Assembly: GCA_007117735.1 (NCBI GenBank)
Contig: SKGA01000028.1
Coordinates: forward strand, 1 to 49,951
Direction of reading: 5' to 3'
Origin: Candidatus Woesearchaeota archaeon
GTDB lineage: Archaea > Nanobdellota > Nanobdellia > Woesearchaeales > SKGA01
DNA: 49,951 bases
Under the pieces are notes generated by a model. It saw only the letters and a program-made list of their open reading frames with translations. It made no database searches and had not been told where the DNA came from. Of the stretch, positions 23,277 to 49,951 are shown piece by piece. The position numbers and the translations under genes were made by a program. Positions within the stretch are counted from its first letter, which is position 1. Each line of letters begins with the position of its first letter.

Positions 23277-23277
23277 C

Positions 23278-24424: not shown

Positions 24425-24997
24425 CTATTCGTCTAGTGACTTGAAGACTTTTTGAATAAACTGCTCAGAATACTTCTGCTCTCGAAGAGTATACGCTATT
24501 TGTATATCACTATATCCTTGTTGTCGATAGTACATAATATACTGTTTTAATTGAGAAAAATTTCTTTTTCGGGTATGGAGTAAAACAAGAATAATAATCA
24601 CTAAAAAAGTCAAACCGCTAAAAAGATAGATAAATTGAAAAGACGAAGTAGAAGCAGTAGTTTGCTCAAGAGGAGGCTGTACTGGTCGAGGTCTTTGAGG
24701 ATCGGGATCGACAGGAGAAGATTGTTCAGAAGCATTAACAACAGAATCTCCATCTCTAAAAACTTCGTCTTCAAATAATTCAGGATTTAAAAAAACAAGG
24801 TCCTCATAAAATAAAACTTCTATATCTGCAAAAGAAACCTCGTGCTGACAAAAAAAAGGATAATCTTCACCAAATCGAGCAAGCGCTAAATCAACATCAA
24901 AACATTCTTCAGGTAGTTGAAAAGAAGAAACTGGAGAAACAACTACAAGTAATAATGCAAGAAAGAGTAACAGTTTACCTACAGACACGAGCACCAC
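24425..24997 (-). CDS. Secreted, single-pass membrane protein (last gene of the surface locus)
   Basis: Sec-like signal KLLLFLALLLVVVSPVSSF, then an acidic ectodomain, a P/Q-rich linker, a TM (FIYLFSGLTFLVIIILVLL) and a small cytoplasmic helical domain (YYRQQGYSDIQIAYTLREQKYSEQFIQKV). The likely true start is GTG at 24988, preceded by GAAGGTG plus a 6-nt spacer. It overlaps the 3' end of the upstream gene. Confidence 0.5.
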   Translation of the reverse strand: MVLVSVGKLLLFLALLLVVVSPVSSFQLPEECFDVDLALARFGEDYPFFCQHEVSFADIEVLFYEDLVFLNPELFEDEVFRDGDSVVNASEQSSPVDPDPQRPRPVQPPLEQTTASTSSFQFIYLFSGLTFLVIIILVLLHTRKRNFSQLKQYIMYYRQQGYSDIQIAYTLREQKYSEQFIQKVFKSLDE

Positions 24998-27900
24998 CTT
25001 CTCTTCTTTGTTCTGCTAGTTGCCAACGTCGAGTTCCATATTCAAAATGCCAAGAAGTATAGCTTGGTGAAGTAAAGCGAACAAAACCATAATCACAAAA
25101 AGCGTTTTCCCACGTGTTTGTATTGGTGGTTCTTCCTGTATTTGCATCTCGAAGAGTTACATCAATAGCGCCTGAAACCATATGAGGACAATGACGAGGA
25201 TTACTTCTTGTTCCAGGATTACAAGCAAGATTTCCTCCTCCTCGCAGATGATTTTGATATAACCTATTTTGAATCTCCCATGTTCGATACGCTTGCAAGA
25301 TTACTAATTCAATATCATTTGGAACGAAATATTCTCTACTCATTCTGATTAATTGTCGAGCCATCAATTCGTTAACAGCACAAATTCTTCCAACAGAAGA
25401 TGTTTCTTCATTACAAATAATATTAGGTATATTTCGTATATCATATAAAGGAGCGTTATCTAAATCTCCTCTGAGATGAGTTCCACCAGGTAAAATATAA
25501 GGGACAAGAGTAAAACTCGGCGTGAGATCAGGGAAAGGAACTCTTGTCGAAGGTAATTCAAATATCTCTTGATCAAGAAAATCAACCGGCTGATCTAATC
25601 GATCTAAGACTAATTCTTGTAATCGAGACTCAGGACGATTAGCTATTTGAAAGGTTAAGGATTCATCATCAAAATTGATTCTTCCTTTAAAGATCTGATC
25701 TGACGGCATACAAAGGTTTGAGTTGGAAAAATAATTCTGGAAAAAAGAAAAATCTTCATCAAAAAAAGAAGGCTCTAAAACTTCTTGGAATAAAAATGAA
25801 GAAATATCTTTTGATTCAACATTAAGATAATGATCAAAAACGTGTACTGAAAGATTATATGATCGTCCAGGAATAAAGAAACCACCATCAGGAGTGCTTG
25901 AAAGAAGAACTGAGTATGTATCTTCAGTTGATCCTCGAGAAACATATAATTGTTCTATAGTTGGTTCTAGTTGATTAATTAAAGATAATTCAGTTACTGA
26001 TTGTTCATAAAAGAAAAATGAATCAGTATTTCCTTCAAAAGATATTCCAAACATATAAGGATTATCCGTTTGAGAATCTACTGTCCACGTAACATAGAGT
26101 AGTTCTTGTGCTAAACAGCTTGTTTGTTCTAGAGATAAACTCTTTATTTCCGGAGCTTGACGATCGTCTAAATAAAGTGAAAAGAGAAAAGGTTCTTCGC
26201 TAAAAGAAAAATCTGCGTGTAAAGGAAAATAGTTTTTATTTGATCTGCACAGTAAAGAAGGATCAGTAATGCGCTCGTCAGGAAGGAGCCATTGTAAGTC
26301 ATCTCCATCCTTTAAAATTTGAAGAGAAGGAGAATCAAAAATAAACATATTACGTTCTGAAGGGTTTGGGAAAAAGTGAACTTTTTCATCCGCAATAGTG
26401 AAGAGTAAAGATGAAGAAGGATTCTGAAAGGGGGCATTACGAGTAAAATCAATAGCTGTCGAATGAAGAAGCTGAGAGGTTTGTAATGATCTTGATTCTG
26501 GTAAGTTGGTCAATCCTTCAATAATATCTCCTCGAGAAGTGAGTTGAAAACCATATACTGAAGAATCAATTTCAGGAACTAAAGAATGATTAATATGAAT
26601 ATCGCAAACACAAAGATCTTGATTATTTGTTAAACAATCAAGGTATTGCTCGGCAACAGATAAAGCAAGAGAAGATGTTGTCGGCAGACTAAAAGTATCT
26701 GGTAAATTTTCTGTTAAGCAAGATGCTGTATTATCATCGCACTCTCGATACAGTAAAGAGATCTTTTCTGAAAAAGAAGCAAATTCAGAAAAATTCATTG
26801 GATGATGAGTGACCATCCGCGGTAAAAATTCAATAGCGCTTGATAATAACGAACCTTGAATCGGAGATGAAGAATCTATACTTATCCCTATTTCGTCATA
26901 GTAGGATCGTGCTTGGCAATAAAATGTTTCAATATCACGAGCATAAGGGCAAGTTCGATCTTTAAGGAAAAACTCGCCGCTAGAACCTAAATCTCTATCA
27001 AAATTTCCTTGATAAATACAGAGAATACATTTCCACATTTCTTCAGGATTATTAGCATACTCATTACACCTGAAGTATTGTCCTTGCGAGATAGAGCTAT
27101 CTCCCGTTGTTGCTTCGGTAAACGCGTTAAAAAAAGTAGTTGCTGAACAACGAAGTTGTGCTTTATCAGAAATAACTGCAGGATGATCACAAGATAAATC
27201 ACTTGAGCATGTAGGGAACCATCCACAGCCTGTAAGAAAAGATTTATCTAACTCGTTTGCCCTTTGATTTGAAGAAGCTGCACCCATAGATGATTCTTTC
27301 ATCGCAATAGCCGTAAGTAAAGCAGGATCTATTCCTCGCTCCACACTTGATTGTATAAATGATTCTTCTAAAGACTGTTGAGAGCCAAATGCAGAGTTCT
27401 GTATTCTTGTTCGATAAGTATTTGACAATCGTTGATCCGGACTACAAGCAAAAGAAGGAGCAATCATATTTGTTGATAGCTGTGGAACTGCATTTTTAAA
27501 AAAAGAATCTAAAGAGTCATAACCTTGATCTTGATAAGATAAGCGAATTGCAGTAATATCATACTCTTTAAACCAAACAGTTTGTAATCTTTCTTGCACG
27601 AGGCCTCGCTCAGGAAGACTCGCACTGAACTGATAATCACCATGATATAATAATAATTGAGGAGAAGAAAATAAAGAGCTATTGAAAATAAGAATATCTC
27701 CTGGTTCAAACATGCTTACTTGATCAAAATTGCAAGTTCGACAAACAGCAGGCTTATCTAGTAATCGAGAAATATAAACAGTGGTTGTGTTTCGTTCTTG
27801 GAAAAAAGAAACGTTTGCATGAGTTCCAACCCACCATAACCAACCAGCGGAGTCAAATCCTGCTTCGGTTAAACGAGTAGTTCCTGGTTTAACAGGATAA

Positions 27901-28640
27901 AGAGGGAGATCATATAATAAAGAGTTTTCATCCTGTACAAGAAGAAATGCATCGCTAAAAGAATAAGGTGTTGAACCGTTTCGAACATAGGGTAGATGAA
28001 TACTTAAAGAGTGAAATCCGTCAATAAAATGTTGTGCTATTTCTGCAAAACAAGAACCCGCAGCACAATTTATTTGTCGTTCATAACCGTATGAAGAAAG
28101 TGCTGAAGAAAAGTATTTTGCCGTTGTTGCAGGCTGTATTTTTGATTGTGGAATAGTTTGAGAACTTGTTGGTTGAGAAAGAGGTTGTCGTAAATTTCTT
28201 GTTGCCTGCATATCAACAGTGGATCCCTCTTGAAAAAAGGATAATTGGGAAGGAAAAGTACCAATGGTTTGAAGGTTGTTGAATGTTTTTCGAATAAGTT
28301 CTTCATAGTTTTTTTCAAAAGAGGGAGGATTGTCAGGATACAAAGCCAAGAAAAGATGAGGGGTTGTTTGAAAAGAGGAAGGCGAAACATGGCCTGCTTG
28401 TTGAAGAAGAAGGGTTCTTGCTTCCTGTACAGAAAAACGAAGTGAATGTCTTAGTTCTTGTTCTTGAAGAAAAATATCTTGTGTTGAAGAAAGTAAGGAG
28501 TATTGTTGCGAGCCAATTATTAAACGATCGTCAGAAACAGTAAAGAGATTAAAAGGAGTAAAAACAATATCTACTACAATAATAAAAAAAACCACTGCTA
28601 AGAAAAGCATTCCAAAACCTTTTTTATGTAATCGTTTCAT
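24975..28640 (-). CDS. Pilin-like-anchored multidomain peptidoglycan hydrolase (SLT-like lytic transglycosylase motif plus C-terminal M15/VanY-type D-Ala-D-Ala peptidase; possible papain-like module)
   Basis: The N-terminus MKRLHKKG/FGMLFLAVVFFIIVVDIVF looks like a class III signal. IDPALLTAIAMKESSMG (nt about 26961-27368) matches the SLT catalytic Glu-Ser region. The C-terminal 136 aa (nt 24978-25385) carry QAYRTWEIQNRLY, NPG...HCPHMVSGAIDV and WHFEYG, which are the M15 zinc-ligand motifs. GSCFAEIAQHF, GFDSAGWLWWV, EPGDILIF and LYHGD (nt about 27531-28088) are weakly NlpC/P60- or transglutaminase-like. Confidence 0.75.
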   Translation of the reverse strand: MKRLHKKGFGMLFLAVVFFIIVVDIVFTPFNLFTVSDDRLIIGSQQYSLLSSTQDIFLQEQELRHSLRFSVQEARTLLLQQAGHVSPSSFQTTPHLFLALYPDNPPSFEKNYEELIRKTFNNLQTIGTFPSQLSFFQEGSTVDMQATRNLRQPLSQPTSSQTIPQSKIQPATTAKYFSSALSSYGYERQINCAAGSCFAEIAQHFIDGFHSLSIHLPYVRNGSTPYSFSDAFLLVQDENSLLYDLPLYPVKPGTTRLTEAGFDSAGWLWWVGTHANVSFFQERNTTTVYISRLLDKPAVCRTCNFDQVSMFEPGDILIFNSSLFSSPQLLLYHGDYQFSASLPERGLVQERLQTVWFKEYDITAIRLSYQDQGYDSLDSFFKNAVPQLSTNMIAPSFACSPDQRLSNTYRTRIQNSAFGSQQSLEESFIQSSVERGIDPALLTAIAMKESSMGAASSNQRANELDKSFLTGCGWFPTCSSDLSCDHPAVISDKAQLRCSATTFFNAFTEATTGDSSISQGQYFRCNEYANNPEEMWKCILCIYQGNFDRDLGSSGEFFLKDRTCPYARDIETFYCQARSYYDEIGISIDSSSPIQGSLLSSAIEFLPRMVTHHPMNFSEFASFSEKISLLYRECDDNTASCLTENLPDTFSLPTTSSLALSVAEQYLDCLTNNQDLCVCDIHINHSLVPEIDSSVYGFQLTSRGDIIEGLTNLPESRSLQTSQLLHSTAIDFTRNAPFQNPSSSLLFTIADEKVHFFPNPSERNMFIFDSPSLQILKDGDDLQWLLPDERITDPSLLCRSNKNYFPLHADFSFSEEPFLFSLYLDDRQAPEIKSLSLEQTSCLAQELLYVTWTVDSQTDNPYMFGISFEGNTDSFFFYEQSVTELSLINQLEPTIEQLYVSRGSTEDTYSVLLSSTPDGGFFIPGRSYNLSVHVFDHYLNVESKDISSFLFQEVLEPSFFDEDFSFFQNYFSNSNLCMPSDQIFKGRINFDDESLTFQIANRPESRLQELVLDRLDQPVDFLDQEIFELPSTRVPFPDLTPSFTLVPYILPGGTHLRGDLDNAPLYDIRNIPNIICNEETSSVGRICAVNELMARQLIRMSREYFVPNDIELVILQAYRTWEIQNRLYQNHLRGGGNLACNPGTRSNPRHCPHMVSGAIDVTLRDANTGRTTNTNTWENAFCDYGFVRFTSPSYTSWHFEYGTRRWQLAEQRREGGARVCR

Positions 28641-29188
28641 AAAGTACCTCCTGAAACTAAAGAAAGTAATGTTCGTTGTAAAAAATTAAATCCAGGATAT
28701 TCGAAGCGATAAACAATAAATTTTTGTTGACTTGAAGATGAAGGGATTGGTAGACTAAATCCTTCTTGATAATTTCTACTTCTAGAAGTTCGCAACGGAA
28801 AATATTCCCGAGTACCTTCTATTAAAGCAATTTCAACTTCAGAAACATAAGAATATTCTTTGAAAAGGTTAAGCGATCGTAATAAACGTTCTTGATACGT
28901 TAACATGTTCTCAGTTTCTTCTCTTGTTCTTTCTTCTTTCATTCTTAATGTATAATAGCTAAAGGCGAGGTCTTGGAAATTTTTATCTTCAGAAACAGAC
29001 ATGTCGGGAAGCAAACGCAGTGAAGATTTTGCTAAAAATTCTTGCCTCGCTTCACGTATTTCATTTCTTGCTTGAGATTCTTGAGATTCTATAAAAATAA
29101 AGAAAATGAGAATTGCTAAAAGGAAAAAAACTACTGCAATTATTTTGATATAGATGTTCAGAAAAACAATTCCTTTCTTCATGACCAT
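28637..29188 (-). CDS. Pilin-like (class III signal-like) protein
   Basis: MVMKKG/IVFLNIYIKIIAVVFFLLAILIFFIFI. It overlaps both neighbouring genes. Confidence 0.5.
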   Translation of the reverse strand: MVMKKGIVFLNIYIKIIAVVFFLLAILIFFIFIESQESQARNEIREARQEFLAKSSLRLLPDMSVSEDKNFQDLAFSYYTLRMKEERTREETENMLTYQERLLRSLNLFKEYSYVSEVEIALIEGTREYFPLRTSRSRNYQEGFSLPIPSSSSQQKFIVYRFEYPGFNFLQRTLLSLVSGGTL

Positions 29189-42803: not shown

Positions 42804-45800
42804 TTAGGGAATGAAAAAAATAGTTGGTTCTTCAAACACAATATTTCTTACTTTTGGATTAATTTGTAACCAGTCTCCTTGATTTCCTCCCCGATCAACA
42901 GCTCTAAAATAAAGATGACTTCTCGCGTGTGTTTCTACAGATAGCAATAAATCTACCTCTGAAGAAGTAGTTCTTGAAACTCCTCCTTGACAATGAGTAA
43001 GAGGATCAAACGTTGCAAGATCAACCGCTGGTCCAAAGCAGTACTCTATCTCTTGACAACCAAACTGTTGAATGGGAATTTGCGAATCAAAATCATCACA
43101 GACTAAACGTAGTTCTCGTTCGAGTACCCAATCAAACAGCGTTGGGAAATAAGGAGTAAATGGTTCTTGTAATGTATCTCGTGCAAGTACTGAAACAGTT
43201 GGCGCGAGTCTATCAATCGTGAAGGTTGCATAATCTCCTGGTTCTTGCTCAGTAATTTCATTAGAGAATTCGCATGAGAAATAGAAAATATAAGGTCTGC
43301 TTTCTTGTGCTTGAATCCCTAATGATGAAGGAAATGAATCTAGACGATGAATATGTGTCGTTCCTCCTGTTTGAGAAAAGGTTCCTCTTGCTTGTGCATG
43401 AGGTCTTTGTTCTGTATCAAACTTACACGTAGCATCATTTACTGTTTGTAATTCTAAAACAACGCTAGAGAGATTTCGATACACTCCTCCTCGTGGAAGA
43501 ATATTAAAGATTGAAGGATTTGCTTCTATAGTAATATCTTCTTGGTATACAAGATCATTCCCAAAATCATCATAACAAGTGAGATTAAAATAATAATAGC
43601 CATCTTGTAAAAATAAGTAGGTGGCGTTAAAGTCTGTTCCAAAGGAAGCAACGTGTTGTCCTCCAATAACTTGTCCTGTTAAATGATCATGTAATCTTCC
43701 TTCACAGAATGAAGACTTGTCTATTTCAAAAGAGACGGTGAGGTTTGTTCGATAGATTCGAGGAGCAACATCAAAAGAATCTTCTTTCGTTTCAAATGAG
43801 ACCAATTCAGGACTCGTTTTATCTATAAAAATAAAACTATGATTAACTACTTCTAAATTTCTAGCTGGATCCATTGAATAATAGAGTAATACATATTCTT
43901 GACTATCATCTGAAAGGTTAGTATATCCATCTCCTCCCGGTAAATAATCATCTAAAGTATAAACAGGGTATGTCGGACAACCTTGATCTAAACAAGCGAG
44001 AGCTACAGATGAGTCAGTAGTGCAATCATCACAATCATCTGGCATATAACATTGTATTTGTGCACAGCTTGCGGGCGCAAGTGCTACATAAGTTAAAAGT
44101 CGTTCACTTTCCCAGGTTGAGTCTTCTACTGTGAAAAGGATTTCTGATAATTGGCTTTTTCCATATACGGGCAAATAAGAACCATCTGTTCGTTGATATC
44201 GAGTTTCTTGAACTGGTGAACGTAGTTGTAAAGTTGTTTCCGGAGCTTCATTATCTAAAATACAATCAAGTCGTTCTGAATTTCGAACTCCTGTACTTAA
44301 CGATCCTGTTCCTCGTTCAAAGCAATCGTCATAAAAAGGATTTATTGAAGAGACATATCCATCACGATTACTAAAGCAACCTTGAACACCTCCTTGATCA
44401 ACCCATTGACAAGTTCCTCTCCCAAAAAGATCATTACTTAACTGCCTTGGTTCATTTGTTCCAGCAATTCGTTGATTTCCGTCGTAAAAAACATTTATTT
44501 CAAACGCTTGATTATTCGTTCCTACACATTGTTCTTCAGTTTCATAAAAGAAACAACCAATAGTTTCTTGTGCTAAACATGCTGGAAGGAAAGGATCAGA
44601 GTGTCGAACAGGAAGAGAGATATCTGCGTTTCTAAAAACGGTTTGTTCTACTCTAGGAGGTGAAGCTGATTGATTGTGGTTTTGTGTTTCTTTAAAGAAA
44701 CAATCACCGTATAATCCGCAAAAATTTTCGTTACAAGTTCCAATCGGACTATCCGTATCACAAAGTGTACAATTTTGATCTTGTACCTCTACTGGTTGAC
44801 AAACTCCAAGACCTAATTCATCACTATAACTTTGCCAAGAACAACCATTTACTGCTTGATTATCATCTAAATCAGTAAACCTAAAACAAGGGTCTTGAGA
44901 ACAAGCTCCTTCTGTCTGATAATCATAACAACTTCGTACTTCATCACAAGAATCATACGTTTCAAAAAATCCTCCTCTCATATCTAAATAACAAAGACCA
45001 ATTTGTGAACCTTCTGGTTCTGGTGTTGCGAGAGGTTGGCTAGGGTCATATTCAAAATCTTCACAAAATAAAAGGGTTGAACCTGTCGAAAAAGACATTT
45101 GTACTTCAAAATTGTAAGGTGAGAATTGGTCAAATAACCCGTTACATAACTCACAAGGTCCTGATTGTACACAAGCAGCTCCTGTTGCTAAAGGATTGTT
45201 TGGTTGAAATGGCGTGTGAACACAGGTTTCACTTGCAGAACAAAATTCTACTGTTTGAAACGTGTTATTCGTATACACGTTATCTCGAATAGTTTCCACA
45301 TAACATCCTGTCGGACTTTCTCCGCCAAAAGAATCCGTTGCACAAATTAAACCAAAAGCTCGTGGTTGATGGCAATACAAATCCCCTGAATTAAAACAAG
45401 GAAGGGTTCCATCCGCATCTACCGCACAGTGTTCTTGACCATCCGCGGTCAAAGTACAAACATTGTAACAATAGTTAGTATTCTCTTGAAGTGCTGAAGC
45501 GAATATTGCTTCCTGTAACGTCTGTTGAACAATTTTTGAATTTTTTGTCCCCTGTGCGCAAGTATTCGGACTTACCCCGCTTTCTTCACACATAATAATA
45601 CGATGACCAACAATATTTTGTTGACAAGATGCTGAAAGATTAGTTCTCCATCGCAATTTTACATCGCTTGTACCTTGGGTATAATATACCCCTGTTGGAA
45701 ATTCTAAATTAGCATAAGAATCAAGAATGTTTCGAGTGTTTTGTCGTTGAGAATCAGTAAATTCATCTAAGAAAGAAGGTGCTTGTTCATCACAAGTATT

Positions 45801-47000
45801 TTGACATAAGGGACTATTTTGACAACTTGGACACGTATCACATTTTGCGACATCATCACAAACCGCGCAAAAATCTTGACATTGCGAATAATCAAAACCA
45901 CAATCAGCAGTACAACCTAAATTACCTCCAGTTAACCCAACTGTTGAACACGCGGGCGCATCTGTTGAAATCGTTCCGTCAGGAAAATGTCGATAATAAG
46001 TGATTCCCGTATCTCTATCAATATCGCATTGTTCAAAACCAGTTACTTCCCCATCACCACAAAGACTCCCTAATTGAGTAGAAGTAGGACAATCAAAATC
46101 TTGACCTTCAGGATCGGGAGTGTTTTGAGTAAGTACAGAGATAGGTCGATCTGTTAAAATACCGCAAGCATTTTGATCAGTTACTGTTCGAAGTTTTACA
46201 TATTCAGTTCCATAAGGAACACATTGACCCCAAGGACCCACATCCCAATCAGGAACACAAGGAGAAGTTATTTCCTGACAATCAAGAACAAAATCAATAG
46301 TTTTTGTTGTGTAAGGTCCTGAAAATTGTTGAGAAATTGTTTGTGGTTGACAGTCAAGAAAAACAGCGTCACCATTTCGAGTAATTTGATAATTTTGCGG
46401 GGCTGTCGCGCTAAATTGGTTAAGAGCATTATCAACTCCAGGAATATCTCCTAAATTATAATGTCCTGTACCATTTGTTGTTGCAGAAATAAACAAGCCA
46501 TTTTCTGCTTGCACCGTAATTCCTGGTAAAGGAATTCCTGAAGCATTATTCATTCGTACAGTCCCAATAACTTCATGCATAATAGTTGGTTGCGCACTAG
46601 GATCACAATCACAAACGCCGTTTGTGGGCGCTACAGGAGTATAAGCACCTCCTTGAACAGTCTCACAGTAAGATTTTTGAATTTCTGAAGGTAATAAATT
46701 AACAGATGAAGCTCCAAAGTCCAACACATTACCAAAACCATCACAACAACAAGCCGTTTCAGTAACATCAGGTAAAATATTCCCGGAAGCGTCAAGACAA
46801 TTGTCGACAAAAACAGAGTTAGGATTCCAAGCTACACAGTCAGCAGCACTGGGAGAAGAGGATGAAGGTATATAAACACCCGTTCCAGGTAGAGAAGGGT
46901 TTGCGTAAGGCATAACGCAACAAGCTTGAGAATTAGCTTGCACTAATGGAAGAAACAGTAATACTGCAATGAATAAAAATAAATACGCTTTCACAACCAA
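42804..47000 (-). CDS. Giant secreted cysteine-rich surface protein (about 1396-1398 aa) with no C-terminal anchor
   Basis: Signal YLFLFIAVLLFLPLVQANS. Several dozen Cys; I counted 29 in the first roughly 410 aa. CarboxypepD_reg-like segment VIGTVRMNNASGIPLPGITVQAENG...TNGTGHYNLGDIPG. TSP1-like CVPDWDVGPWGQCVPYGTEYVKLRTVTDQNACG at nt 46161-46259. CGDGEVTGFEQCD Cys-rich repeat. C-x2-Y-x5-C-x4-C module at nt about 44830-44935. The likely start is GTG at 46994 (AGGGTG plus a 7-nt spacer) rather than TTG at 47000. Confidence 0.8.
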   Translation of the reverse strand: MVVKAYLFLFIAVLLFLPLVQANSQACCVMPYANPSLPGTGVYIPSSSSPSAADCVAWNPNSVFVDNCLDASGNILPDVTETACCCDGFGNVLDFGASSVNLLPSEIQKSYCETVQGGAYTPVAPTNGVCDCDPSAQPTIMHEVIGTVRMNNASGIPLPGITVQAENGLFISATTNGTGHYNLGDIPGVDNALNQFSATAPQNYQITRNGDAVFLDCQPQTISQQFSGPYTTKTIDFVLDCQEITSPCVPDWDVGPWGQCVPYGTEYVKLRTVTDQNACGILTDRPISVLTQNTPDPEGQDFDCPTSTQLGSLCGDGEVTGFEQCDIDRDTGITYYRHFPDGTISTDAPACSTVGLTGGNLGCTADCGFDYSQCQDFCAVCDDVAKCDTCPSCQNSPLCQNTCDEQAPSFLDEFTDSQRQNTRNILDSYANLEFPTGVYYTQGTSDVKLRWRTNLSASCQQNIVGHRIIMCEESGVSPNTCAQGTKNSKIVQQTLQEAIFASALQENTNYCYNVCTLTADGQEHCAVDADGTLPCFNSGDLYCHQPRAFGLICATDSFGGESPTGCYVETIRDNVYTNNTFQTVEFCSASETCVHTPFQPNNPLATGAACVQSGPCELCNGLFDQFSPYNFEVQMSFSTGSTLLFCEDFEYDPSQPLATPEPEGSQIGLCYLDMRGGFFETYDSCDEVRSCYDYQTEGACSQDPCFRFTDLDDNQAVNGCSWQSYSDELGLGVCQPVEVQDQNCTLCDTDSPIGTCNENFCGLYGDCFFKETQNHNQSASPPRVEQTVFRNADISLPVRHSDPFLPACLAQETIGCFFYETEEQCVGTNNQAFEINVFYDGNQRIAGTNEPRQLSNDLFGRGTCQWVDQGGVQGCFSNRDGYVSSINPFYDDCFERGTGSLSTGVRNSERLDCILDNEAPETTLQLRSPVQETRYQRTDGSYLPVYGKSQLSEILFTVEDSTWESERLLTYVALAPASCAQIQCYMPDDCDDCTTDSSVALACLDQGCPTYPVYTLDDYLPGGDGYTNLSDDSQEYVLLYYSMDPARNLEVVNHSFIFIDKTSPELVSFETKEDSFDVAPRIYRTNLTVSFEIDKSSFCEGRLHDHLTGQVIGGQHVASFGTDFNATYLFLQDGYYYFNLTCYDDFGNDLVYQEDITIEANPSIFNILPRGGVYRNLSSVVLELQTVNDATCKFDTEQRPHAQARGTFSQTGGTTHIHRLDSFPSSLGIQAQESRPYIFYFSCEFSNEITEQEPGDYATFTIDRLAPTVSVLARDTLQEPFTPYFPTLFDWVLERELRLVCDDFDSQIPIQQFGCQEIEYCFGPAVDLATFDPLTHCQGGVSRTTSSEVDLLLSVETHARSHLYFRAVDRGGNQGDWLQINPKVRNIVFEEPTIFFIP

Positions 47001-47077
47001 ACACCCTTATATACCATTCTTCAAAAAATAGTCATATATAAATGTTATGGGAAGAAGAAGATCTCTAACTATAAAAA

Positions 47078-49951
47078 TCATGTCCAACTCCCTGACGCTT
47101 GACAGGTGAAACCACATTCTTGAGCGTTTAATGGGCGGGAAAGAACAGGTGATGAAACACTGGTAGGATTATTTCCTTGACAGAAATGAAGTTGTCCGTC
47201 ACAACTAAGCATTCGTGGTTGTAATTGAGAACCAACTGTTGAAAATCTTGTACCTGAAGACCTTACAGTTCCTTGATAACAAGTCGCTTCCCCTAAAAGA
47301 GGGTTCTGAGCAGTAATAGTTCTTTGACCAGTACAACACATCGCGTTAGGATTTTGTCCTGTTGCCTGAAAACCTTGAGACTGATCGAAGAAAGGAACTG
47401 AGGTTCCTGGGAAGTCATCATAAGACACAAAAGAAGGATCTAAGGATGATTTTGTTTGACAATAACATGCTTCTCGTGAAGTTAATGTCGGTGTTATTTG
47501 ACAATTTTCAGTACAAGCTGCCGTTCCTTGACAAAGAAAACCCACTTCTCCTTGCGGAGTTACAAAATCGCTAGCAAGTAATCCTTGGCAAGTTGAATCT
47601 CCTTGCGTACACATACAAAGATCAAGATTATGATATGCACAATCACCTTCACCATCACAGGTTGCTTGACACGTAAATACTTCTGTAGGAAGGGTTTGTT
47701 GGACATTCCCATAATTCATTTCTACAAATTGATTTGCTGAGGTTATTAATTGAGCAGTAGCCTCCGGGGCGCAGTAGCCTTGATTAATTTCTGCGGCATT
47801 CGGATGTAGAGTGAGTTGTTGTGAAGAAAGCACTTGTTGTTCAAAAGATGTACCTTCATAATATATACAAACAAGATCCCTCGAATCTAAGGATAATGGG
47901 GAAGTTCCTAGATTTGTTCCTGCATGTACAGTTGTAAAAGGAATGGTCTGTTGAAAGATTGATTCATATCCTGGTCCTGAACAGGTTGCAAATTGCCAAG
48001 CGCTAGCCCCACTAAAACTTGTCGGTGTCGCATCACACGCTAGTTCCGTAAACCAGGTCGTTGCCAATCTCCCTCCACAAACGTTTCCTCGCTCTCCTGA
48101 ACAATATTGATTATGAGTAACTCTAAACACGTTATTAATAGATGGTTGTTGTAGATTAAAAGGATTTAATCCTCCAAAGACATCTTGAATAAAAGTTCCA
48201 CCACCAAATTGTTCTTCATAGGTTTGTTGAGTAACAGGGCCAATAGTTCCGTTTACGTATTCAAGCACTGCTCGATCAAGAAAAAGAAACGATCCTGTTG
48301 TTGCAGGGTGAAGTGCAAACACTTCTTCAGAAAAATCATTTGTTGTAAAACAAAGTTCTGCTGCACTTCGAAACGATCCTCCTGTCAATGGTTGGATAGT
48401 ACGATCTAGAGGTTCACAACAACTATGAGGAGGGTTTCCTTGCCAGTACGAGGATAATTGTATGTTTGAGTTAACACCAGCAGGATAATCAGTACTTGTC
48501 CCTAACGAAGTATTAAATTGATGAGGGAGACACTCTGCTACAAAAACTTCTGCAACATCTGGTTGACTGAATATCATTGAAGAAGAGGATTGGTTTTGTC
48601 CGACAATAAGTTCAATTTCGTGTCTTGTGGGATTGTTAACTAAATTATCTCGTTGAAAATAGTCAAAAACAATAGTGCTTATTGTTGAATCGTTTCCGAG
48701 AATATGAACAGGGTTTAATTGTGTGATAAAAAATCCTTCAAGAATATCTAGAAAAATAAACTGAGAAAGAGTTGTTCCTAATAATCTACTTGCAGTGCTG
48801 TTCGTCGCGTCAAGAATATATTTATCTTCAATACTTGCATACCTATTATCAATATCTGGAAATTCATTTCTTGTTTCTAAAACTGCTAACGGCAGATCAA
48901 AAACTAAGAATCGAACAATTTGAAAATCTTTTGCTCCGTGTTCATCTTCAACAACAACAGTTATTTCTCGAAAGCCAATATCTGATTCGTTGGTTTGAAA
49001 TTCAGCAATTCTTTTTGTATCTCGAAAGGCTTGGCTTGATGTTAGGATGTTTGTTACCATATAATCTCGTTCTAAACATTGTTGATGATTTTCTAAAGTA
49101 CAACCTCCCATATCATCACAACAAGCCAAATTAAGATATTCATCATAATCTTCTTTCCATCCAAAAAAAGCGTAGGTAATAGTATCTTCATCCGGATCAA
49201 CTGCAAAAGGCTCTAATCGGACAGTGTCGTTAGTATAAACTAAAATATCTATAGGTATATCATTAAAGAAGTTAGTATTCCCGTCAGTAATGTAATCGAG
49301 AATTGGTTTTCGTTGTTTACTTGCGACAATAAATCGAAAAGGATCTCCTTGTAAGAGAGAACTTTCATCTTGAAAAATCAAGACGTCATCGGCAAGATTT
49401 TGTACCTGTGTACAATTTGCACAAGCGCTCCGCACCCGTTCTACTGAAAGAATAGGTTGAAATCCTGCAGTCGTAGAGTAATCTCTAGAAATAACGAAAA
49501 AAGGATCCCGAAGTGATCGGAAAATTGTTTCAAAAGCGAAATTGTATAATCGTTTGATATTAATATCTGTTCGTGATTGAAAATCAACAGTTCTTGCAAT
49601 ACTTCGAGAACCATCTACCGTGATATCAAAAGGAAATTCTGCTCGAGTAATAATTCCTCGTGGTGATTGAAACGTTGAAACAACGTGAACGTTTTCTTCT
49701 TGTAAAGAAATATCAAACGCGACTAACTCTTCTGTAAATAAAGAAAAATTAACACAAGAGCTCAATTGATTTTGAACAAAACTTTCAAGCTGTCGCTGTA
49801 TAGCGTAGGGTTCTCGAGGAGTGTCATATTGGTGTGCTGCACAACTAAAGATCCCTTCATCAAGGTTGAATGCGTTTGAACCATTATATGAGCAGAGTTT
49901 TGGAAACTCATTCGCTCCTAAATAACCACTCATCGTACTTACTCGTTCACC
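47078..49951 (-). CDS. Giant cysteine-rich surface protein, 5'-truncated by the window edge (more than 957 aa)
   Basis: The reading frame stays open from the track Met (49933) to the last base of the window (GGT GAA CGA GTA AGT ACG ATG). MSGYLGANEF... has no signal peptide, so the true N-terminus probably lies outside the window. VDPDEDTITYAF is an Ig/cadherin-like motif. The C-terminal third is very Cys-rich. Confidence 0.7.
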   Translation of the reverse strand, partial: GERVSTMSGYLGANEFPKLCSYNGSNAFNLDEGIFSCAAHQYDTPREPYAIQRQLESFVQNQLSSCVNFSLFTEELVAFDISLQEENVHVVSTFQSPRGIITRAEFPFDITVDGSRSIARTVDFQSRTDINIKRLYNFAFETIFRSLRDPFFVISRDYSTTAGFQPILSVERVRSACANCTQVQNLADDVLIFQDESSLLQGDPFRFIVASKQRKPILDYITDGNTNFFNDIPIDILVYTNDTVRLEPFAVDPDEDTITYAFFGWKEDYDEYLNLACCDDMGGCTLENHQQCLERDYMVTNILTSSQAFRDTKRIAEFQTNESDIGFREITVVVEDEHGAKDFQIVRFLVFDLPLAVLETRNEFPDIDNRYASIEDKYILDATNSTASRLLGTTLSQFIFLDILEGFFITQLNPVHILGNDSTISTIVFDYFQRDNLVNNPTRHEIELIVGQNQSSSSMIFSQPDVAEVFVAECLPHQFNTSLGTSTDYPAGVNSNIQLSSYWQGNPPHSCCEPLDRTIQPLTGGSFRSAAELCFTTNDFSEEVFALHPATTGSFLFLDRAVLEYVNGTIGPVTQQTYEEQFGGGTFIQDVFGGLNPFNLQQPSINNVFRVTHNQYCSGERGNVCGGRLATTWFTELACDATPTSFSGASAWQFATCSGPGYESIFQQTIPFTTVHAGTNLGTSPLSLDSRDLVCIYYEGTSFEQQVLSSQQLTLHPNAAEINQGYCAPEATAQLITSANQFVEMNYGNVQQTLPTEVFTCQATCDGEGDCAYHNLDLCMCTQGDSTCQGLLASDFVTPQGEVGFLCQGTAACTENCQITPTLTSREACYCQTKSSLDPSFVSYDDFPGTSVPFFDQSQGFQATGQNPNAMCCTGQRTITAQNPLLGEATCYQGTVRSSGTRFSTVGSQLQPRMLSCDGQLHFCQGNNPTSVSSPVLSRPLNAQECGFTCQASGSWT

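What the first reader, a model, noticed from the sequence alone, without database searches (positions are those of the whole stretch)
24425..49951. 25.5-kb single-strand array of about 20 exported proteins: giant Cys-rich adhesin-like proteins, about 15 prepilin-like proteins and a murein hydrolase, a candidate undescribed archaeal cell-contact apparatus
Seen directly:
- From 49951 down to 24425 every gene is on the minus strand.
- Genes are separated by 0-80 nt or overlap by 1-23 nt. ATGA/TTGA overlaps occur at 38502, 38005, 36414, 32430, 31726, 30512 and 28637.
- Every product begins with a signal peptide or a class III-like signal ([KR][KR][GA], then a roughly 20-aa hydrophobic helix).
- The order is three giant proteins (more than 957, about 1398 and 1428 aa), then four M[KS][RK]AQ paralogues, then about 11 further pilin-like or anchored proteins of 40-405 aa, then a 1221-aa peptidoglycan-hydrolase-like protein and a small single-pass protein.

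Established knowledge: archaeal and bacterial type IV filament subunits share this N-terminal design, and minor pilins commonly present adhesins or effectors at filament tips.

Inference: the locus encodes a pilus-like or pseudopilus-like surface structure decorated with disulfide-rich adhesins, carrying a cell-wall-degrading enzyme. A host-dependent, small-genome archaeon could use it to attach to and breach a bacterial partner. No ATPase (PilB/FlaI-like), platform (PilC/FlaJ-like) or prepilin peptidase gene is in the window. I recognise no characterised system with this gene content.
Basis: partly seen in the sequence, partly recalled or inferred. Interest (0 to 1): 0.92.

Follow-up and report, generated by a model that had tools for sequence, protein, structure and literature searches.

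The report
Pilin-like surface operon of DPANN archaea
A roughly 31-kb operon found in many small-genome Woesearchaeota-type archaea encodes giant surface proteins, about 15 proteins with pilus-subunit-type signal peptides, and a bacterial-cell-wall-cutting enzyme with the same signal; it is an uncharacterised candidate for how these archaea grip and open bacterial partners.

Summary
From 24425 to the window end, 19 tightly packed minus-strand genes all encode proteins with an N-terminal export signal. The operon runs 5.8 kb past the window and adds a Memo gene and one more giant protein.

Fourteen products fit a strict class III (prepilin) pattern, against 0 of 23 flank genes. Two more fit a relaxed pattern. 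The same gene order recurs at 21-41% identity in Woesearchaeota/Nanobdellota genomes, and the marker protein g07 has at least 221 relatives in JGI metagenomes. In related loci 49% of ORFs carry the signal (3.4% in controls), half with Gln at +1, as in Methanococcus EppA-type pilins.

The 1221-aa protein belongs to a family whose members hit NlpC/P60, SLT, VanY and Amidase_2. Distant versions of the operon end in Amidase_2 or M23 enzymes with the same signal.

Best reading: a type IV filament-like surface system with an 81-aa candidate major subunit, four conserved core minor pilins, and modular pilins carrying adhesin arrays and murein hydrolases.

Not shown: filament assembly, signal cleavage, or the host. 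No ATPase, platform or peptidase gene lies near any copy.

The hydrolase family and the co-occurring "Module 98" families were already noted (Castelle 2021). I found no description of the operon or its pilin character. It is a new variant of a known kind.

The parts
47078..49951 (-). g03: giant modular pilin-like protein. 1125 aa in full; the start codon and class III signal NRKG|QLTLLVIAGL lie about 500 nt beyond the window end. Cys 3.6%.
   Evidence: - The full-length protein P0003 is 100% identical, and the full ORF sits on the contig.
- Seventeen homologues at 26-39% identity, all about 1100-1200 aa.
- The [KR][GA]Q[ILVA]T signal is conserved in six orthologues.
- AF2: helix 4-74, then beta-rich domains (pLDDT 69).
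- Foldseek: only generic Ig/cadherin/FN3 arrays and S-layer proteins, TM about 0.1.
42804..47000 (-). g04: 1396-1398 aa secreted giant. Sec-type signal, 78 Cys (5.6%).
   Evidence: -.
- Weak Pfam CarboxypepD_reg hit, 24 bits against a cut-off of 32.
- Colinear orthologues at 25-41% identity.
- About 60 invariant Cys in a six-sequence alignment.
- No sequence relative in the PDB.
38502..42788 (-). g05: 1428 aa giant. Sec signal, Ig/cadherin-like repeats, two GVDCGGPC Cys modules, a C-terminal TM helix (residues about 1196-1214) and a 200-aa coiled-coil-like cytoplasmic tail.
   Evidence: -.
- Faint Big_13/Y_Y_Y Pfam hits.
- Profile against the PDB: weak protocadherin EC matches, E 0.003.
- Orthologues at 29-35% identity.
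38005..38505 (-). g06: core pilin-like protein 1 (166 aa; MKRA|QMSNMFTMIM). ATGA overlap with g05.
   Evidence: - Found in 66 related loci, one copy each.
- The motif [KR][GA]Q..[QK]VF[IT][FY] is conserved.
- Overlap verified.
36905..38008 (-). g07: core pilin-like protein 2 (367 aa; MSKA|QIEIQFNWIFVLVIGA). Its invariant QFNWIFV motif is the best marker of the operon.
   Evidence: - Nine homologues and alignment A3.
- At least 221 relatives in JGI metagenomes; found in 90 fetched loci.
- AF2: pLDDT 83, pTM 0.80; helix 2-57, then a beta-sheet, then an alpha/beta and helical domain.
- No PDB fold match: best E 0.016, TM 0.17.
36414..36902 (-). g08: core pilin-like protein 3 (162 aa; MKRA|QIQLGETIFTVII).
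   Evidence: - Found in 67 related loci.
- The motif Q[IVL].[LM]GE[ST]I is conserved.
- hhalign relates it to g06, g07 and g09 only over the N-terminal roughly 40 residues.
35917..36417 (-). g09: core pilin-like protein 4 (166 aa; MKRA|QIEIIGLVFIVLIL).
   Evidence: - Found in 55 related loci.
- The motif Q.EI.GL is conserved.
35863..35916 (-). 54-nt intergenic region before g10. It holds an archaeal TATA-like TTTAAATA (35901-35908) and a GAGGTG ribosome-binding-like motif ahead of the GTG start; a candidate internal promoter.
   Evidence: Read directly from the sequence. This is inference only: no archaeal promoter model was available, and the bacterial promoter scan was at chance level.
35617..35862 (-). 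g10: 81-aa candidate major filament subunit. M RKKA|ELSMNIIIMAIIGLIILAIV helix followed by a 6-Cys knot (C..GG.C...C...C...CC).
   Evidence: - 39 unique family members in related loci, often in 2-3 tandem copies.
- Ser5 and Asn7, Leu19 and two of the Cys are invariant; four helix positions, a Gly and two further Cys are conserved in at least 90% of members.
- The size is comparable to the 74-aa M. maripaludis major pilin (PMC3875500).
- The Cys knot resembles beta-defensin/tick carboxypeptidase inhibitor only weakly, E 0.008.
34435..35601 (-). g11: 388 aa, 24 Cys. Relaxed class III-like N-terminus (SSQG|LQFIFVTIML).
   Evidence: -.
- Positional orthologues of 391-510 aa with 20-25 Cys in L003, L092 and L013.
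33445..34287 (-). g12: about 280 aa pilin-like protein (M LDKKG|ALVSIIVGITSF). The start is reassigned to the TTG after a GAGGTG.
   Evidence: -.
- Positional orthologues with NKKG|F.. and DSKG|V...
33291..33482 (-). g13: very short pilin-like protein (about 48-63 aa; HKKA|STNMLLYAILFIIVVAIALML) with no globular domain, so Flp/Epd-like in size. The gene caller missed it.
   Evidence: -.
- ORFs of 53 and 64 aa at the same position in L003 and L092 carry KKG|.. signals.
32430..33290 (-). g14: 286 aa with an N-terminal signal or anchor (no [KR][GA] in this genome).
   Evidence: -.
- Orthologues in L092 (SKKG|YGPY) and L003 (STTA|QLST) look more class III-like.
31726..32433 (-). g15: 235 aa pilin-like protein (SKKA|ASGSFKIIIAIVLGLL) with 10 Cys and an Asp-rich, thrombospondin-type-3-like stretch.
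   Evidence: -.
- Orthologues in L003 and L015.
30512..31729 (-). g16: 405 aa pilin-like protein (MNRKA|SLMLTTTVTLVLIAL).
   Evidence: -.
- Orthologues of 506-642 aa.
29646..30509 (-). g17: 287 aa pilin-like protein (MIFQKPLRKKA|AALMLKIAFSLIAAAL). The start is reassigned to the ATG at 30509.
   Evidence: -.
- L003 and L092 orthologues carry NKKG|SIEW and NKKG|QIEI.
29179..29646 (-). g18: 155 aa with a relaxed signal here (GDAG|LTIAEVF). Its orthologues have NKKG|QEIT.
28637..29188 (-). g19: 181-183 aa pilin-like protein (MKKG|IVFLNIYIKIIAVVFF).
24975..28640 (-). g20: 1221 aa modular pilin-like murein hydrolase (HKKG|FGMLFLAVVFFIIVV) with three modules.
- A degenerate NlpC/P60-like module (about nt 27501-28193) with Cys to Ser in GFDSAGW.
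- An SLT-like module (about nt 26826-27485) with Glu449 in AMKESSMG.
- A VanY/M15-like module (about nt 24981-25463) with His1153, Asp1160 and His1198.
   Evidence: - P0001 is identical; P0002 is annotated by NCBI as a D-Ala-D-Ala carboxypeptidase family protein.
- Exhaustive HMMER search: 128 relatives, matching in three separate regions.
- Pfam on 34 members: NLPC_P60 18, SLT 9, VanY 5, Amidase_2 4, Muramidase 2, PG_binding_1 2, CHAP 2.
- Motif columns inspected.
- The window protein alone: VanY 23 bits against a cut-off of 25; vanXY E 0.0015.
24425..24997 (-). g21: 187-190 aa secreted protein (Sec signal), overlapping the g20 stop by 14-23 nt. Last gene of the operon.
   Evidence: -.
- Orthologue in L003: 179 aa, 29% identity.

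Best explanation
**What it is.** The locus is the larger part of a roughly 31-kb, vertically inherited operon specific to Woesearchaeota/Pacearchaeota-type DPANN archaea (GTDB Nanobdellota). It encodes the extracellular parts of a type IV filament-like surface system.

**What is shown**
- About 16 of 21 products start with a class III (prepilin-type) signal: a 4-15-residue basic leader ending in Gly or Ala, very often Gln at +1, then a hydrophobic helix of about 20 residues.
- The signal, the gene order and the gene number are conserved across very divergent genomes.
- The last large gene is a multi-module peptidoglycan hydrolase carrying the same signal.

**What is inferred**
- An EppA/PibD-like prepilin peptidase and an ATPase/platform encoded elsewhere in the genome process these proteins and assemble them through their N-terminal helices.
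- The 81-aa g10 has the most conserved helix and is often duplicated. It, or the 48-aa g13, forms the filament body.
- The four conserved, translationally coupled proteins g06-g09 form an initiating or tip complex, like the four core minor pilins of bacterial type IV pili and type II secretion pseudopili.
- The large pilin-like proteins are 'modular pilins'. g03 carries beta-sandwich arrays and g20 carries murein hydrolase modules, and both are displayed on the filament or at its tip.
- The Sec-exported Cys-rich giants g01, g04 and g05 act as associated adhesins or anchors. g05 spans the membrane and has a cytoplasmic coiled-coil tail.
- Archaea of this group have no murein. The hydrolase is therefore most likely aimed at a bacterial cell: the apparatus binds a bacterial partner and locally opens its wall.
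For: **1. Class III signals**
- 14 strict and 2 relaxed matches in the locus, against 0 of 23 flank genes.
- In 90 related loci, 385 of 792 ORFs match, against 30 of 889 in control loci. The +1 residue is Gln in 198 of 385, against 2 of 30.
- The cleavage-site motif is conserved in orthologues at 21-40% identity.

**2. Parallels with the Methanococcus Epd pilus**
- EppA-dependent pilins of M. maripaludis have leaders of 5-13 residues ending in Gly, Gln at +1 and a 74-aa major pilin.
- Their pilin genes lie apart from the ATPase locus (PMC3875500; bioRxiv 10.64898/2026.04.22.720090).

**3. Conservation**
- Colinear orthologues of nearly every gene occur in L003, L007, L010-L015 and L092.
- Upstream neighbours differ between genomes, so the operon is kept together as a unit.
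- g06-g09 are each single-copy in 55-90 loci. The g07 family has at least 221 metagenome relatives.

**4. g10**
- The helix is nearly invariant and tandem copies are common.
- A TATA-like element lies upstream.

**5. g07 structure**
- The AF2 model (pLDDT 83) has a 56-residue N-terminal helix followed by a beta-sheet, the general pilin layout.

**6. Murein hydrolase**
- Family members hit NlpC/P60, SLT, VanY, Amidase_2, Muramidase, CHAP and PG_binding_1.
- The window protein keeps the SLT Glu-Ser and the VanY His/Asp/His residues.
- In distant clusters the terminal class III protein instead carries Amidase_2 (86 bits) or Peptidase_M23 (55 bits). The theme 'pilin signal plus wall hydrolase' is therefore maintained through domain swapping.

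**7. Precedent**
- Modular pilins, and a four-minor-pilin tip complex that presents an adhesin, are established in bacteria (PMC8179133).
- Castelle et al. independently proposed that these large lytic-transglycosylase proteins target bacterial hosts (PMC8204110).
Against: - No Pfam, NCBIfam or PDB pilin family matches any product.
- The pilin fold of g07 is architectural only. Foldseek found nothing.
- No secretion ATPase, platform protein or A24 peptidase lies in the window, the rest of the contig, or 1.02 Mb of related loci. The last of these scans used a crude motif.
- One paper states that type IV pilus components are missing from DPANN genomes (bioRxiv 10.1101/2020.05.14.094862). Others report them in some DPANN (PMC6393860; the 2026 TFF census).
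- The +5 Glu typical of Epd and bacterial pilins is not at a fixed position: it sits at +3 in g07 and g09, at +6 in g08, and is absent in g06.
- The NlpC/P60 module of this genome's g20 has lost its catalytic Cys and a conserved His.
- The SLT and VanY assignments for this one protein are below the curated thresholds.
- In archaea, class III signals also occur on proteins that are not filament subunits.
- There are no expression, processing, imaging or host data.
Confidence: 0.55

Rival explanations
1. **Surface coat or 'bindosome'-type assembly, not a filament.** The class III-like N-termini serve, cleaved or not, mainly as single-helix membrane anchors or for short-range oligomerisation. The operon then encodes the cell envelope of these archaea: giant Cys-rich wall or S-layer-like proteins plus anchored accessory proteins. 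The hydrolase digests environmental murein for nutrition.
For: - The g03 model's best Foldseek hits include the S-layer proteins Sap, EA1 and SbsB.
- The operon is single-copy and vertically inherited. In one lineage it sits next to SecY, YidC and ribosomal protein genes, a housekeeping-like context.
- No assembly ATPase is nearby.
- From established knowledge: in Sulfolobus, sugar-binding proteins with class III signals form a surface 'bindosome' rather than a pilus.
- These organisms have minimal metabolism and could scavenge wall fragments.
Against: - The Foldseek matches have TM about 0.1 and are generic beta-sandwich arrays.
- A simple anchor does not explain the near-invariant helix of the tiny g10, its tandem duplication, or a fixed set of four small single-copy proteins.
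- The strong Gln preference at +1 points to recognition by a dedicated peptidase.
- The known bindosome itself depends on a type IV-like assembly system.
Confidence: 0.25
2. **Antibacterial or predatory enzyme display without stable symbiosis.** The hydrolases, and possibly the defensin-like g10 knot, are weapons against competing bacteria or tools for lysing prey. They are not part of a host-attachment organelle.
For: - The family carries a diverse, swapped set of lytic domains: NlpC/P60, SLT, VanY, Amidase_2, M23, Muramidase and CHAP. Such swapping is typical of lysins and effectors under an arms race.
- The downstream genes g11-g19 evolve very fast.
- The g10 Cys pattern weakly resembles beta-defensins.
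Against: - This reading does not explain the 15 co-conserved pilin-like genes or the giant adhesin-like proteins.
- The enzymes carry a membrane or filament-anchoring signal rather than a free-secretion signal.
- The defensin resemblance is weak: E 0.008, with Cys-biased composition.
Confidence: 0.1
3. **Type II secretion-like pseudopilus.** g06-g10 form a short piston that exports the giant proteins and the hydrolase across the envelope, rather than forming an exposed adhesive pilus.
For: - Four conserved minor-pilin-like genes plus one small major subunit resemble the GspH-K plus GspG layout (established knowledge; PMC8179133).
- The cargo-like giants are encoded in the same operon.
Against: - The giants have ordinary Sec signals, and the archaeon has a single membrane, so no second translocation step is obviously needed.
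- The hydrolase and g03 themselves carry the pilin signal, which fits display better than cargo.
- No secretin-like or ATPase genes are present.
Confidence: 0.07
4. **Mobile element, virus-derived island or annotation artefact.**
For: The locus is a long same-strand block of unannotated genes. G+C is slightly higher (0.36-0.40) than in the flank (0.30-0.36).
Against: - Orthologues are colinear across genomes whose housekeeping proteins are only 42-57% identical.
- The downstream RPA-YdjM neighbours are conserved in a second genome.
- There are no integrase, capsid or terminase hits.
- No relatives were found in 2.9 million viral contigs.
- No tRNA gene borders the locus.
Confidence: 0.01

Closest known systems
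Epd (EppA-dependent) type IV-like pili of Methanococcus maripaludis, archaeal TFF 'system 1'
   Same: - Short basic leader ending in Gly or Ala, with Gln at +1.
- Many different pilin-like genes in one constitutive operon.
- A very short major subunit: 74 aa there, 81 aa (g10) or about 48 aa (g13) here.
- Large minor pilins with adhesin-like domains.
- Pilin genes located apart from the ATPase and platform locus (PMC3875500; bioRxiv 10.64898/2026.04.22.720090).
   Different: - No detectable sequence similarity, and no DUF361/Class_IIIsignal hit.
- The +5 Glu is not fixed.
- No eppA in the operon.
- Five giant Cys-rich proteins and a murein hydrolase have no counterpart in the epd locus.
- Different phylum.
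Bacterial modular pilins and the four-minor-pilin tip complex (PilB/PilC of Streptococcus sanguinis; FimU-PilVWX with PilY1; GspH-K)
   Same: - A functional module grafted behind a pilin N-terminus: g03 carries adhesin-like arrays and g20 carries enzymes.
- Four conserved, adjacent small pilin-like genes lie next to large adhesin genes (PMC8179133).
   Different: - This is an archaeal signal type.
- No homology is detectable.
- Among the 15 most frequent bacterial modular-pilin architectures that the survey discusses (Fig. 8), the only enzymatic module named is a peptidase; I did not examine the full dataset of 264 architectures. A three-module enzyme of 1221 aa is much larger than typical modular pilins.
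- The tip-complex role of g06-g09 is inference only.
[quoted passage not shown] 2021, PMC8204110; also noted in Rinke 2013 and Castelle 2015)
   Same: - Same kind of organism, and the same kind of large protein with a lytic-transglycosylase-like domain.
- Same proposal that it binds or degrades bacterial walls.
- A set of 51 co-occurring lineage-specific unknown families, many predicted to be membrane-bound or extracellular.
   Different: - That work did not describe an operon, class III signals, pilin-like proteins or the additional NlpC/P60, VanY, Amidase_2 and M23 modules.
- I could not check that g20 is formally a member of fam00969.
Type IV pili of episymbiotic Saccharibacteria (CPR bacteria)
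   Same: Ultra-small, host-dependent cells use type IV pili to find and bind a bacterial host (PMC9894109 and PMC12206443, listed). This is the functional analogy behind the proposed role.
   Different: - Those are bacterial systems with recognisable PilA/B/C/D/T genes.
- No murein hydrolase is fused to a pilin there.
- They have been tested experimentally.
Pilin-rich 'dark matter' islands of DPANN genomes (Makarova, Wolf and Koonin 2019, PMC6393860, Fig. 2A)
   Same: Runs of unannotated DPANN genes with signal peptides, interpreted as highly diverged pilins.
   Different: - Those islands were recognised because they contain FlaI-type ATPase and TadC genes. This operon contains neither.
- It adds giant proteins and wall hydrolases.
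- I could not check whether the same locus was among their examples.

Membership tests
Type IV pilins / type IV filament (TFF) subunits | Class III signal peptide: a short basic leader ending in Gly or Ala, followed directly by a hydrophobic helix of about 20 residues | tested here: met
   - 14 strict and 2 relaxed matches among 21 operon products, against 0 of 23 flank genes.
- Conserved in orthologues.
- 49% of ORFs in related loci match, against 3.4% in control loci.
Type IV pilins / type IV filament (TFF) subunits | Leader removed by an A24-family prepilin peptidase (PibD, FlaK or EppA) | not testable with these tools
   - No peptidase gene lies in the window, the contig or 99 related loci.
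- Whole genomes could not be scanned, and there are no proteomic data.
Type IV pilins / type IV filament (TFF) subunits | Dedicated assembly ATPase (FlaI/PilB family) and polytopic platform protein (TadC/FlaJ/PilC) in the same genome | tested here: inconclusive
   - Absent from the window, from the remaining 5.8 kb of the contig, and from 1.02 Mb around related operons by a Walker A motif scan.
- The rest of the genomes could not be searched.
- In M. maripaludis these genes are also at a separate locus (PMC3875500).
Type IV pilins / type IV filament (TFF) subunits | Pilin fold: a long N-terminal alpha-helix packed on an antiparallel beta-sheet | tested here: inconclusive
   - The AF2 model of g07 (pLDDT 83) has helix 2-57 followed by seven strands.
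- Foldseek against the PDB found no pilin: best E 0.016, TM 0.17.
Type IV pilins / type IV filament (TFF) subunits | Match to a curated pilin family model (Pfam Class_IIIsignal/DUF361, Flp, archaellin or NCBIfam equivalents) | tested here: not met
   - No such hit for any product.
- For 27 g10-family members there were only insignificant Flp1_like and Tad hits, E at least 0.05.
Epd / EppA-type pilins (archaeal TFF system 1) | Gln at +1 and Glu at +5 of the mature protein | tested here: inconclusive
   - +1 Gln is present in g03 and g06-g09, and in 51% of class III ORFs in related loci.
- Glu is present but at +3 (g07, g09) or +6 (g08), and it is absent in g06.
Epd / EppA-type pilins (archaeal TFF system 1) | Operon contains the dedicated peptidase EppA, and the system has two platform genes and an ATPase | tested here: not met
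   - No polytopic protein is encoded in the operon: each product has a single N-terminal hydrophobic segment, with one extra C-terminal helix in g05 and a weak internal segment in g21.
- No ATPase was found.
Lytic transglycosylase, SLT domain (GH23) | SLT fold with the catalytic Glu in the E-S motif | tested here: inconclusive
   - The window g20 gives no Pfam SLT hit.
- 9 of 34 family members do, best E 4e-8.
- g20 aligns with them and keeps Glu449-Ser450 in DPALLTAIAMKESSMG.
VanY / peptidase M15 (LAS metallopeptidases) | H-x6-D and a downstream His as zinc ligands; match to the family model | tested here: inconclusive
   - Pfam VanY 23.1 bits against a cut-off of 25; NCBIfam vanXY E 0.0015; PDB LdcB/DacB E 0.17.
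- His1153, Asp1160 and His1198 are conserved across the family.
- The orthologue P0002 is named a D-Ala-D-Ala carboxypeptidase family protein by NCBI.
NlpC/P60 cysteine peptidases | Catalytic Cys in the D-C-S-G motif and catalytic His residues | tested here: not met
   - 18 of 34 family members match Pfam NLPC_P60.
- The window protein has GFDSAGW (Cys to Ser) and lacks both conserved His. The module is present but probably non-catalytic here.
S-layer proteins | Lattice-forming major envelope protein; homology to a known S-layer family | tested here: inconclusive
   - Only generic Foldseek matches of the g03 model to Sap, EA1 and SbsB, at TM about 0.1.
- No Pfam S-layer domain and no sequence match in the PDB.
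fam00969 / Module 98 of Castelle et al. 2021 | Membership of the published protein clusters | not testable with these tools
   - The description fits: large, extracellular, LT-like domain, specific to Woese-/Pacearchaeota.

The most novel reading that the evidence does not exclude
Woese-/Pacearchaeota-type DPANN archaea build a previously unseen contact organelle: a type IV-like filament whose subunits include wall-degrading enzymes and giant disulfide-rich adhesins. They use it to latch onto bacteria and perforate their peptidoglycan. This would be a dedicated cross-domain (archaeon-on-bacterium) parasitic or episymbiotic apparatus. It might be assembled by a machinery too diverged to recognise, or different from the canonical ATPase/platform pair.
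Probability: 0.3. Interest if true: 0.85.

Novelty: new variant of a known kind. Interest (0 to 1): 0.62.

Why it matters
**The open question.** The hosts and attachment mechanisms of the very abundant Woesearchaeota/Pacearchaeota are unknown. Every cultivated DPANN archaeon lives on another archaeon.

**What this operon offers**
- It is conserved, easy to recognise through the QFNWIFV marker in g07 and the LSMNVIIIAAIALLVLV helix in g10, and physically links pilin-type proteins with murein hydrolases.
- It therefore gives a specific, testable molecular candidate for contact with bacterial hosts.
- Its parts can be used as FISH or antibody targets, as proteomic markers (mature N-termini starting at Gln), and as enzymes to assay on peptidoglycan.
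- It would extend the 'modular pilin' idea to archaea and to enzymatic cargo.
- It suggests that part of the 'Module 98' dark matter of these lineages belongs to one apparatus.

Tried and rejected
- **Exact-sequence look-ups.** My own translations of g04, g05 and g06 failed, because of start-codon differences from the public gene calls. The contig was reached instead through identical hits from homology searches.
- **Curated family scans.** Pfam and NCBIfam scans of all products were almost blank.
- **Sequence searches against the PDB.**
  - g20 alone: nothing significant.
  - g03 and g04 profiles: nothing.
  - g05 profile: only weak protocadherin repeats.
  - g10 profile: only a weak beta-defensin/TCI-like Cys pattern.
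- **Foldseek.** The g07 model (pLDDT 83) found no relative. The g03 model gave only generic beta-sandwich arrays.
- **GTDB genome scan.** The g05 scan was swamped by the GVDCGGPC module, which is widespread in DPANN, Saprospiraceae and Polyangia surface proteins. Only six of the 80 loci (four nearly full-length, two partial) were true orthologues, so taxonomic breadth from named genomes stays poorly sampled.
- **Motif scan for machinery.** A search for a secretion-ATPase Walker A and an A24 GxGD motif in 99 loci found only the flanking ABC transporter. This is a crude negative.
- **Viral contigs.** No relatives, so a viral or mobile origin is rejected.
- **Promoter and terminator scan.** The bacterial-type scan was at chance level and is not applicable to archaea.
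- **Literature.** Eight searches found no description of this operon.
- **The 465-aa polytopic protein at 6275-7672.** I considered whether it could be a diverged platform protein. It has about 10 evenly spaced helices and no soluble domains, and it lies 17 kb from the operon, so I rejected the idea without further testing.

Full report
**1. Observation**

The window is archaeal. The flank encodes NAC, an RPA-like OB-fold protein, translin, Sec61-beta and a TGT. Rfam finds an archaeal RNase P RNA at 19552-19861. G+C is 30-40%.

From 24425 to the window end, the ORF list shows an unbroken series of long minus-strand ORFs, with only short spurious ORFs on the other strand. Public gene calls for the same contig (ENA ERZ27301260 k141_1194546, 55,731 nt; window position = record position minus 21) agree.

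I number the genes g01-g21 from the top of the operon.
- Gaps run from -14 to +83 nt. One called gap of 171 nt shrinks to about 147 nt when the g12 start is moved to a TTG preceded by GAGGTG.
- Every product has one N-terminal hydrophobic segment; g05 has an additional C-terminal one and g21 a weak internal one.

**2. The locus is larger than the window**

The homology search with the truncated first gene returned the identical full-length protein (P0003, 1125 aa). It begins (V/M)NRKG|QLTLLVIAGLGILIAIALIIF, so the first 'giant' is itself pilin-like.

Upstream on the contig lie a Memo-family gene (285 aa) and another giant, cut by the contig end at 1424 aa. Relatives have 1757-1820 aa at that position with a Sec signal. 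The whole unit is about 31 kb and 21 genes.

**3. Class III signals**

I applied a FlaFind-like rule: [KR][GA] within the first 50-60 residues, followed by a 16-residue window with mean Kyte-Doolittle hydropathy above the cut-off.
- It picks g03, g06-g10, g12, g13, g15-g17, g19 and g20.
- It picks none of the 23 flank genes.
- g04 also triggers the rule, but it has a classical Sec signal (…LVQANS|Q).
- g11 and g18 fit if the -2 residue is relaxed. The g18 orthologue has NKKG|QEIT.

The motif is conserved in orthologues that are otherwise 21-40% identical:
- g03: [KR][GA]Q[ILVA]T
- g06: Q..[QK]VF
- g07: Q[IL].[IVLM][QS]F[NA]WIF
- g08: Q[IL]Q[LMI]GE[ST]I
- g09: Q.EIIGLV

Across 90 related loci, 385 of 792 ORFs (49%) satisfy the rule, against 30 of 889 (3.4%) in unrelated control loci. 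Gln occupies +1 in 198 of 385, against 2 of 30. This is far beyond chance, and it is the strongest single argument that a dedicated prepilin-type peptidase recognises these proteins.

**4. Conservation and distribution**

Colinear orthologues of nearly every gene were found in these sources:
- a Candidatus Woesearchaeota MAG (GCA_021734105.1, L003)
- a 369-kb JGI contig (L007)
- two Logan contigs (L010, L011)
- four GTDB representatives (L012-L015), titled Nanobdellota or, implausibly, 'Methanosarcinales binchicken' MAGs
- a 1.07-Mb ENA contig (L092)

In L092 the 15 genes from g06 to g20 are present in the same order and with similar sizes, including the 64-aa g13.

Operon proteins are 21-41% identical between genomes, while Memo, RPA and YdjM are 41-57% identical. 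The operon is therefore old, vertically inherited and fast-evolving.

The upstream neighbours differ: SecY/YidC/L34e in L007, and ThiF/ThiS/pseudouridine synthase in L010 and L011. This places the 5' boundary at g01.

A scan of JGI metagenomes with the g07 family (invariant QFNWIFV) found 221 confirmed relatives. The long loci (L108, L113, L116, L119, L153) repeat the plan: giant Cys-rich proteins, then g06, g07, g08, g09, then one to three g10-like genes and a further series of class III proteins.

With the N-terminal 30 residues masked, g06-g09 form four non-overlapping families, each single-copy in 55-90 loci. Profile-profile comparison relates them only over the N-terminal 40-85 residues. 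They share a pilin-like N-terminal module but are not simple paralogues. g11-g19 diverge too fast for BLAST to follow.

No relative occurs in 2.9 million viral contigs.

**5. Individual components**

*g10 (81 aa)*
- It has the most conserved helix in the operon. The helix motif is LSMNVIIIAAIALLVLV, with Ser5, Asn7, Leu19 and two Cys invariant; four helix positions, a Gly and two further Cys are conserved in at least 90% of 27 sequences. A 6-Cys knot follows.
- It is often tandemly duplicated.
- It is preceded by a 54-nt spacer with TTTAAATA and GAGGTG.
- These are the properties expected of a major filament subunit. The M. maripaludis major pilin is 74 aa (PMC3875500).
- g13 (mature about 48 aa, no globular part) is an alternative candidate.

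*g07*
- It was modelled with nine homologues (pLDDT 83, pTM 0.80). The model shows helix 2-57, then a beta-sheet, then further domains.
- Foldseek finds no solved relative.

*g03*
- It was modelled with 16 sequences (pLDDT 69). The model shows helix 4-74 followed by beta-rich domains.
- These resemble Ig/cadherin/FN3 arrays and S-layer proteins only generically.

*g05*
- It has weak protocadherin-like repeats and two GVDCGGPC modules.
- It also has a membrane-spanning helix and a conserved coiled-coil-like cytoplasmic tail.

**6. The hydrolase**

g20 alone gives only VanY at 23 bits (cut-off 25), vanXY at E 0.0015 and LdcB/DacB at E 0.17.

An exhaustive HMMER search of 1.84 billion representatives found 128 relatives. 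They match three separate regions: residues about 41-380, 386-605 and 1060-1220.

Pfam on 34 members gives these counts:

| Pfam family | Members matching (of 34) |
|---|---|
| NLPC_P60 | 18 |
| SLT | 9 |
| VanY | 5 |
| Amidase_2 | 4 |
| GDSL lipase (Lipase_GDSL_2) | 4 |
| Muramidase | 2 |
| PG_binding_1 | 2 |
| CHAP | 2 |
| Glucosaminidase | 2 |

In the window protein:
- The SLT Glu-Ser is kept (Glu449).
- The LAS ligands His1153, Asp1160 and His1198 are kept.
- The NlpC/P60 Cys is Ser (GFDSAGW) and the conserved His residues are lost. That module is probably a binding module here.

The family consensus begins with KKG plus a hydrophobic stretch.

In two distant operons the terminal class III protein instead carries a domain well above the Pfam cut-off: Amidase_2 (86 bits) in L153 and Peptidase_M23 (55 bits) in L131. 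The combination 'pilin signal plus murein hydrolase at the end of this operon' is thus preserved while the catalytic domains are exchanged. That argues for selection on the function. No murein is known from archaea of this group, so the target is most likely bacterial.

**7. What is missing**
- No secretion ATPase, platform protein or prepilin peptidase is in the window or in the remaining 5.8 kb of the contig.
- A crude motif scan found none in 1.02 Mb around related operons either.
- The literature is split. He et al. state that type IV pilus components are missing in DPANN. Makarova et al. 2019 and a 2026 census report them in some DPANN.
- In M. maripaludis, the pilin operon, the major pilin gene and the ATPase/platform genes are at separate loci. 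Absence from the operon is therefore not decisive.

**8. Interpretation**

The best-supported model (confidence 0.55) is a type IV filament-like surface system.
- g10, or g13, forms the shaft.
- g06-g09 form an initiator or tip complex.
- g03 and g20 are modular pilins that display adhesin arrays and wall hydrolases.
- The Sec-dependent giants g01, g04 and g05 are associated adhesins or anchors.

The steps that are shown are the signal type, the conservation, the domain content of the hydrolase family and the linkage between them. Assembly, cleavage, roles of individual genes and the bacterial target are inferred.

The main rival (0.25) is a non-filamentous envelope or bindosome-like assembly that uses the same signals as anchors. 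Lesser rivals are an antibacterial or predatory enzyme display (0.10) and a secretion pseudopilus (0.07). A mobile or viral origin is essentially excluded.

**9. Comparison with what is known, and novelty**

The system works like an Epd-type archaeal pilus combined with the bacterial 'modular pilin' strategy. It fails sequence-based membership of any curated pilin family and lacks the operon-encoded EppA of the Epd system.

Two elements were already noted by Castelle et al. 2021 and earlier papers: the large lytic-transglycosylase proteins, and a module of 51 co-occurring unknown families in Woese-/Pacearchaeota. Pilin-like dark-matter islands in DPANN were noted by Makarova et al. 2019.

Eight full-text searches found no description of:
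- this operon
- its class III signals
- the four-gene core
- the g10 family
- the hydrolase as a pilin-signal protein

I therefore rate it a new variant of a known kind, with interest 0.62. It is a solid, widely conserved and testable lead on DPANN-bacterium contact. It is not a categorically new machine, and it still lacks evidence of assembly.

Noticed in passing
Beyond the window end (contig record about 50,500-51,400; L005 4353-5210): A cytoplasmic Memo-family gene (285 aa, PF01875, no signal peptide) sits between giants g01 and g03 in all six lineages examined. It is 41-57% identical between them, far better conserved than its neighbours. Its role in an otherwise fully exported gene set is unexplained.
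   Followed up: partly
window 35617-35862 (g10) and 39 relatives in L093-L169: The C-terminal 6-Cys pattern of the small pilin-like protein (C..GG.C...C...C...CC) resembles the beta-defensin / tick carboxypeptidase inhibitor / big-defensin pattern. The best profile hit against the PDB is E 0.008. The match is weak and Cys-biased, but a hydrophobic helix plus a defensin-like knot also recalls big defensins.
   Followed up: partly
window 39,300-39,500 (g05 residues about 1100-1150); L018-L091: The Cys-rich module ...QC[FY]NGIEDPxEEGVDCGGPC... of g05 occurs in surface proteins of many DPANN archaea. It also occurs in Saprospiraceae, other Bacteroidota and Polyangia MAGs (309 confirmed matches in GTDB representatives). 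It is either a shared or exchanged extracellular module across domains, or convergent.
   Followed up: no
window 1463-3145 (+) and 10156-11448 (-): There are two class II Asp/Asn/Lys-type tRNA synthetase genes. One is 560 aa with a GAD insertion domain, the architecture usual for bacterial-type AspRS. The other is 430 aa without it. This may be a bacterial-type acquisition alongside the archaeal enzyme.
   Followed up: no
window 12643-13854 (-): The TGT gene encodes only 403 aa, the catalytic domain alone (Pfam TGT 430 bits), without the C-terminal domains of archaeosine TGT. Castelle et al. 2021 reported bacterial-type queuosine genes in some DPANN; this may be one.
   Followed up: no
window 19552-19861 (+): Archaeal RNase P RNA (Rfam RF00373, 126.7 bits), in the 600-nt gap between the NAC gene and the ABC transporter. 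In relatives, a gene of about 188 aa with a weak RNase P p30 hit precedes g01.
   Followed up: partly
window 5650-7672 (-): Two adjacent genes have no family match. One is a 465-aa protein with about 10 predicted transmembrane helices; the other is a 206-aa soluble protein.
   Followed up: partly
window 22842-24375 (-); L003 14415-16015: The RPA-like and YdjM-like genes directly downstream of the operon are in the same order in a Woesearchaeota MAG whose proteins are only about 42% identical. The 3' neighbourhood is conserved, unlike the 5' side.
   Followed up: partly
L113 2927-9983: In one distant lineage the giant protein and the g06-like gene are inverted relative to g07 onward, giving divergent transcription. 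The association survives rearrangement.
   Followed up: no
L012, L014, L015 and others: Several GTDB representative MAGs that carry this DPANN operon are titled 'uncultured Methanosarcinales archaeon (binchicken ...)'. This looks like a mislabelled taxonomy in the public records.
   Followed up: no
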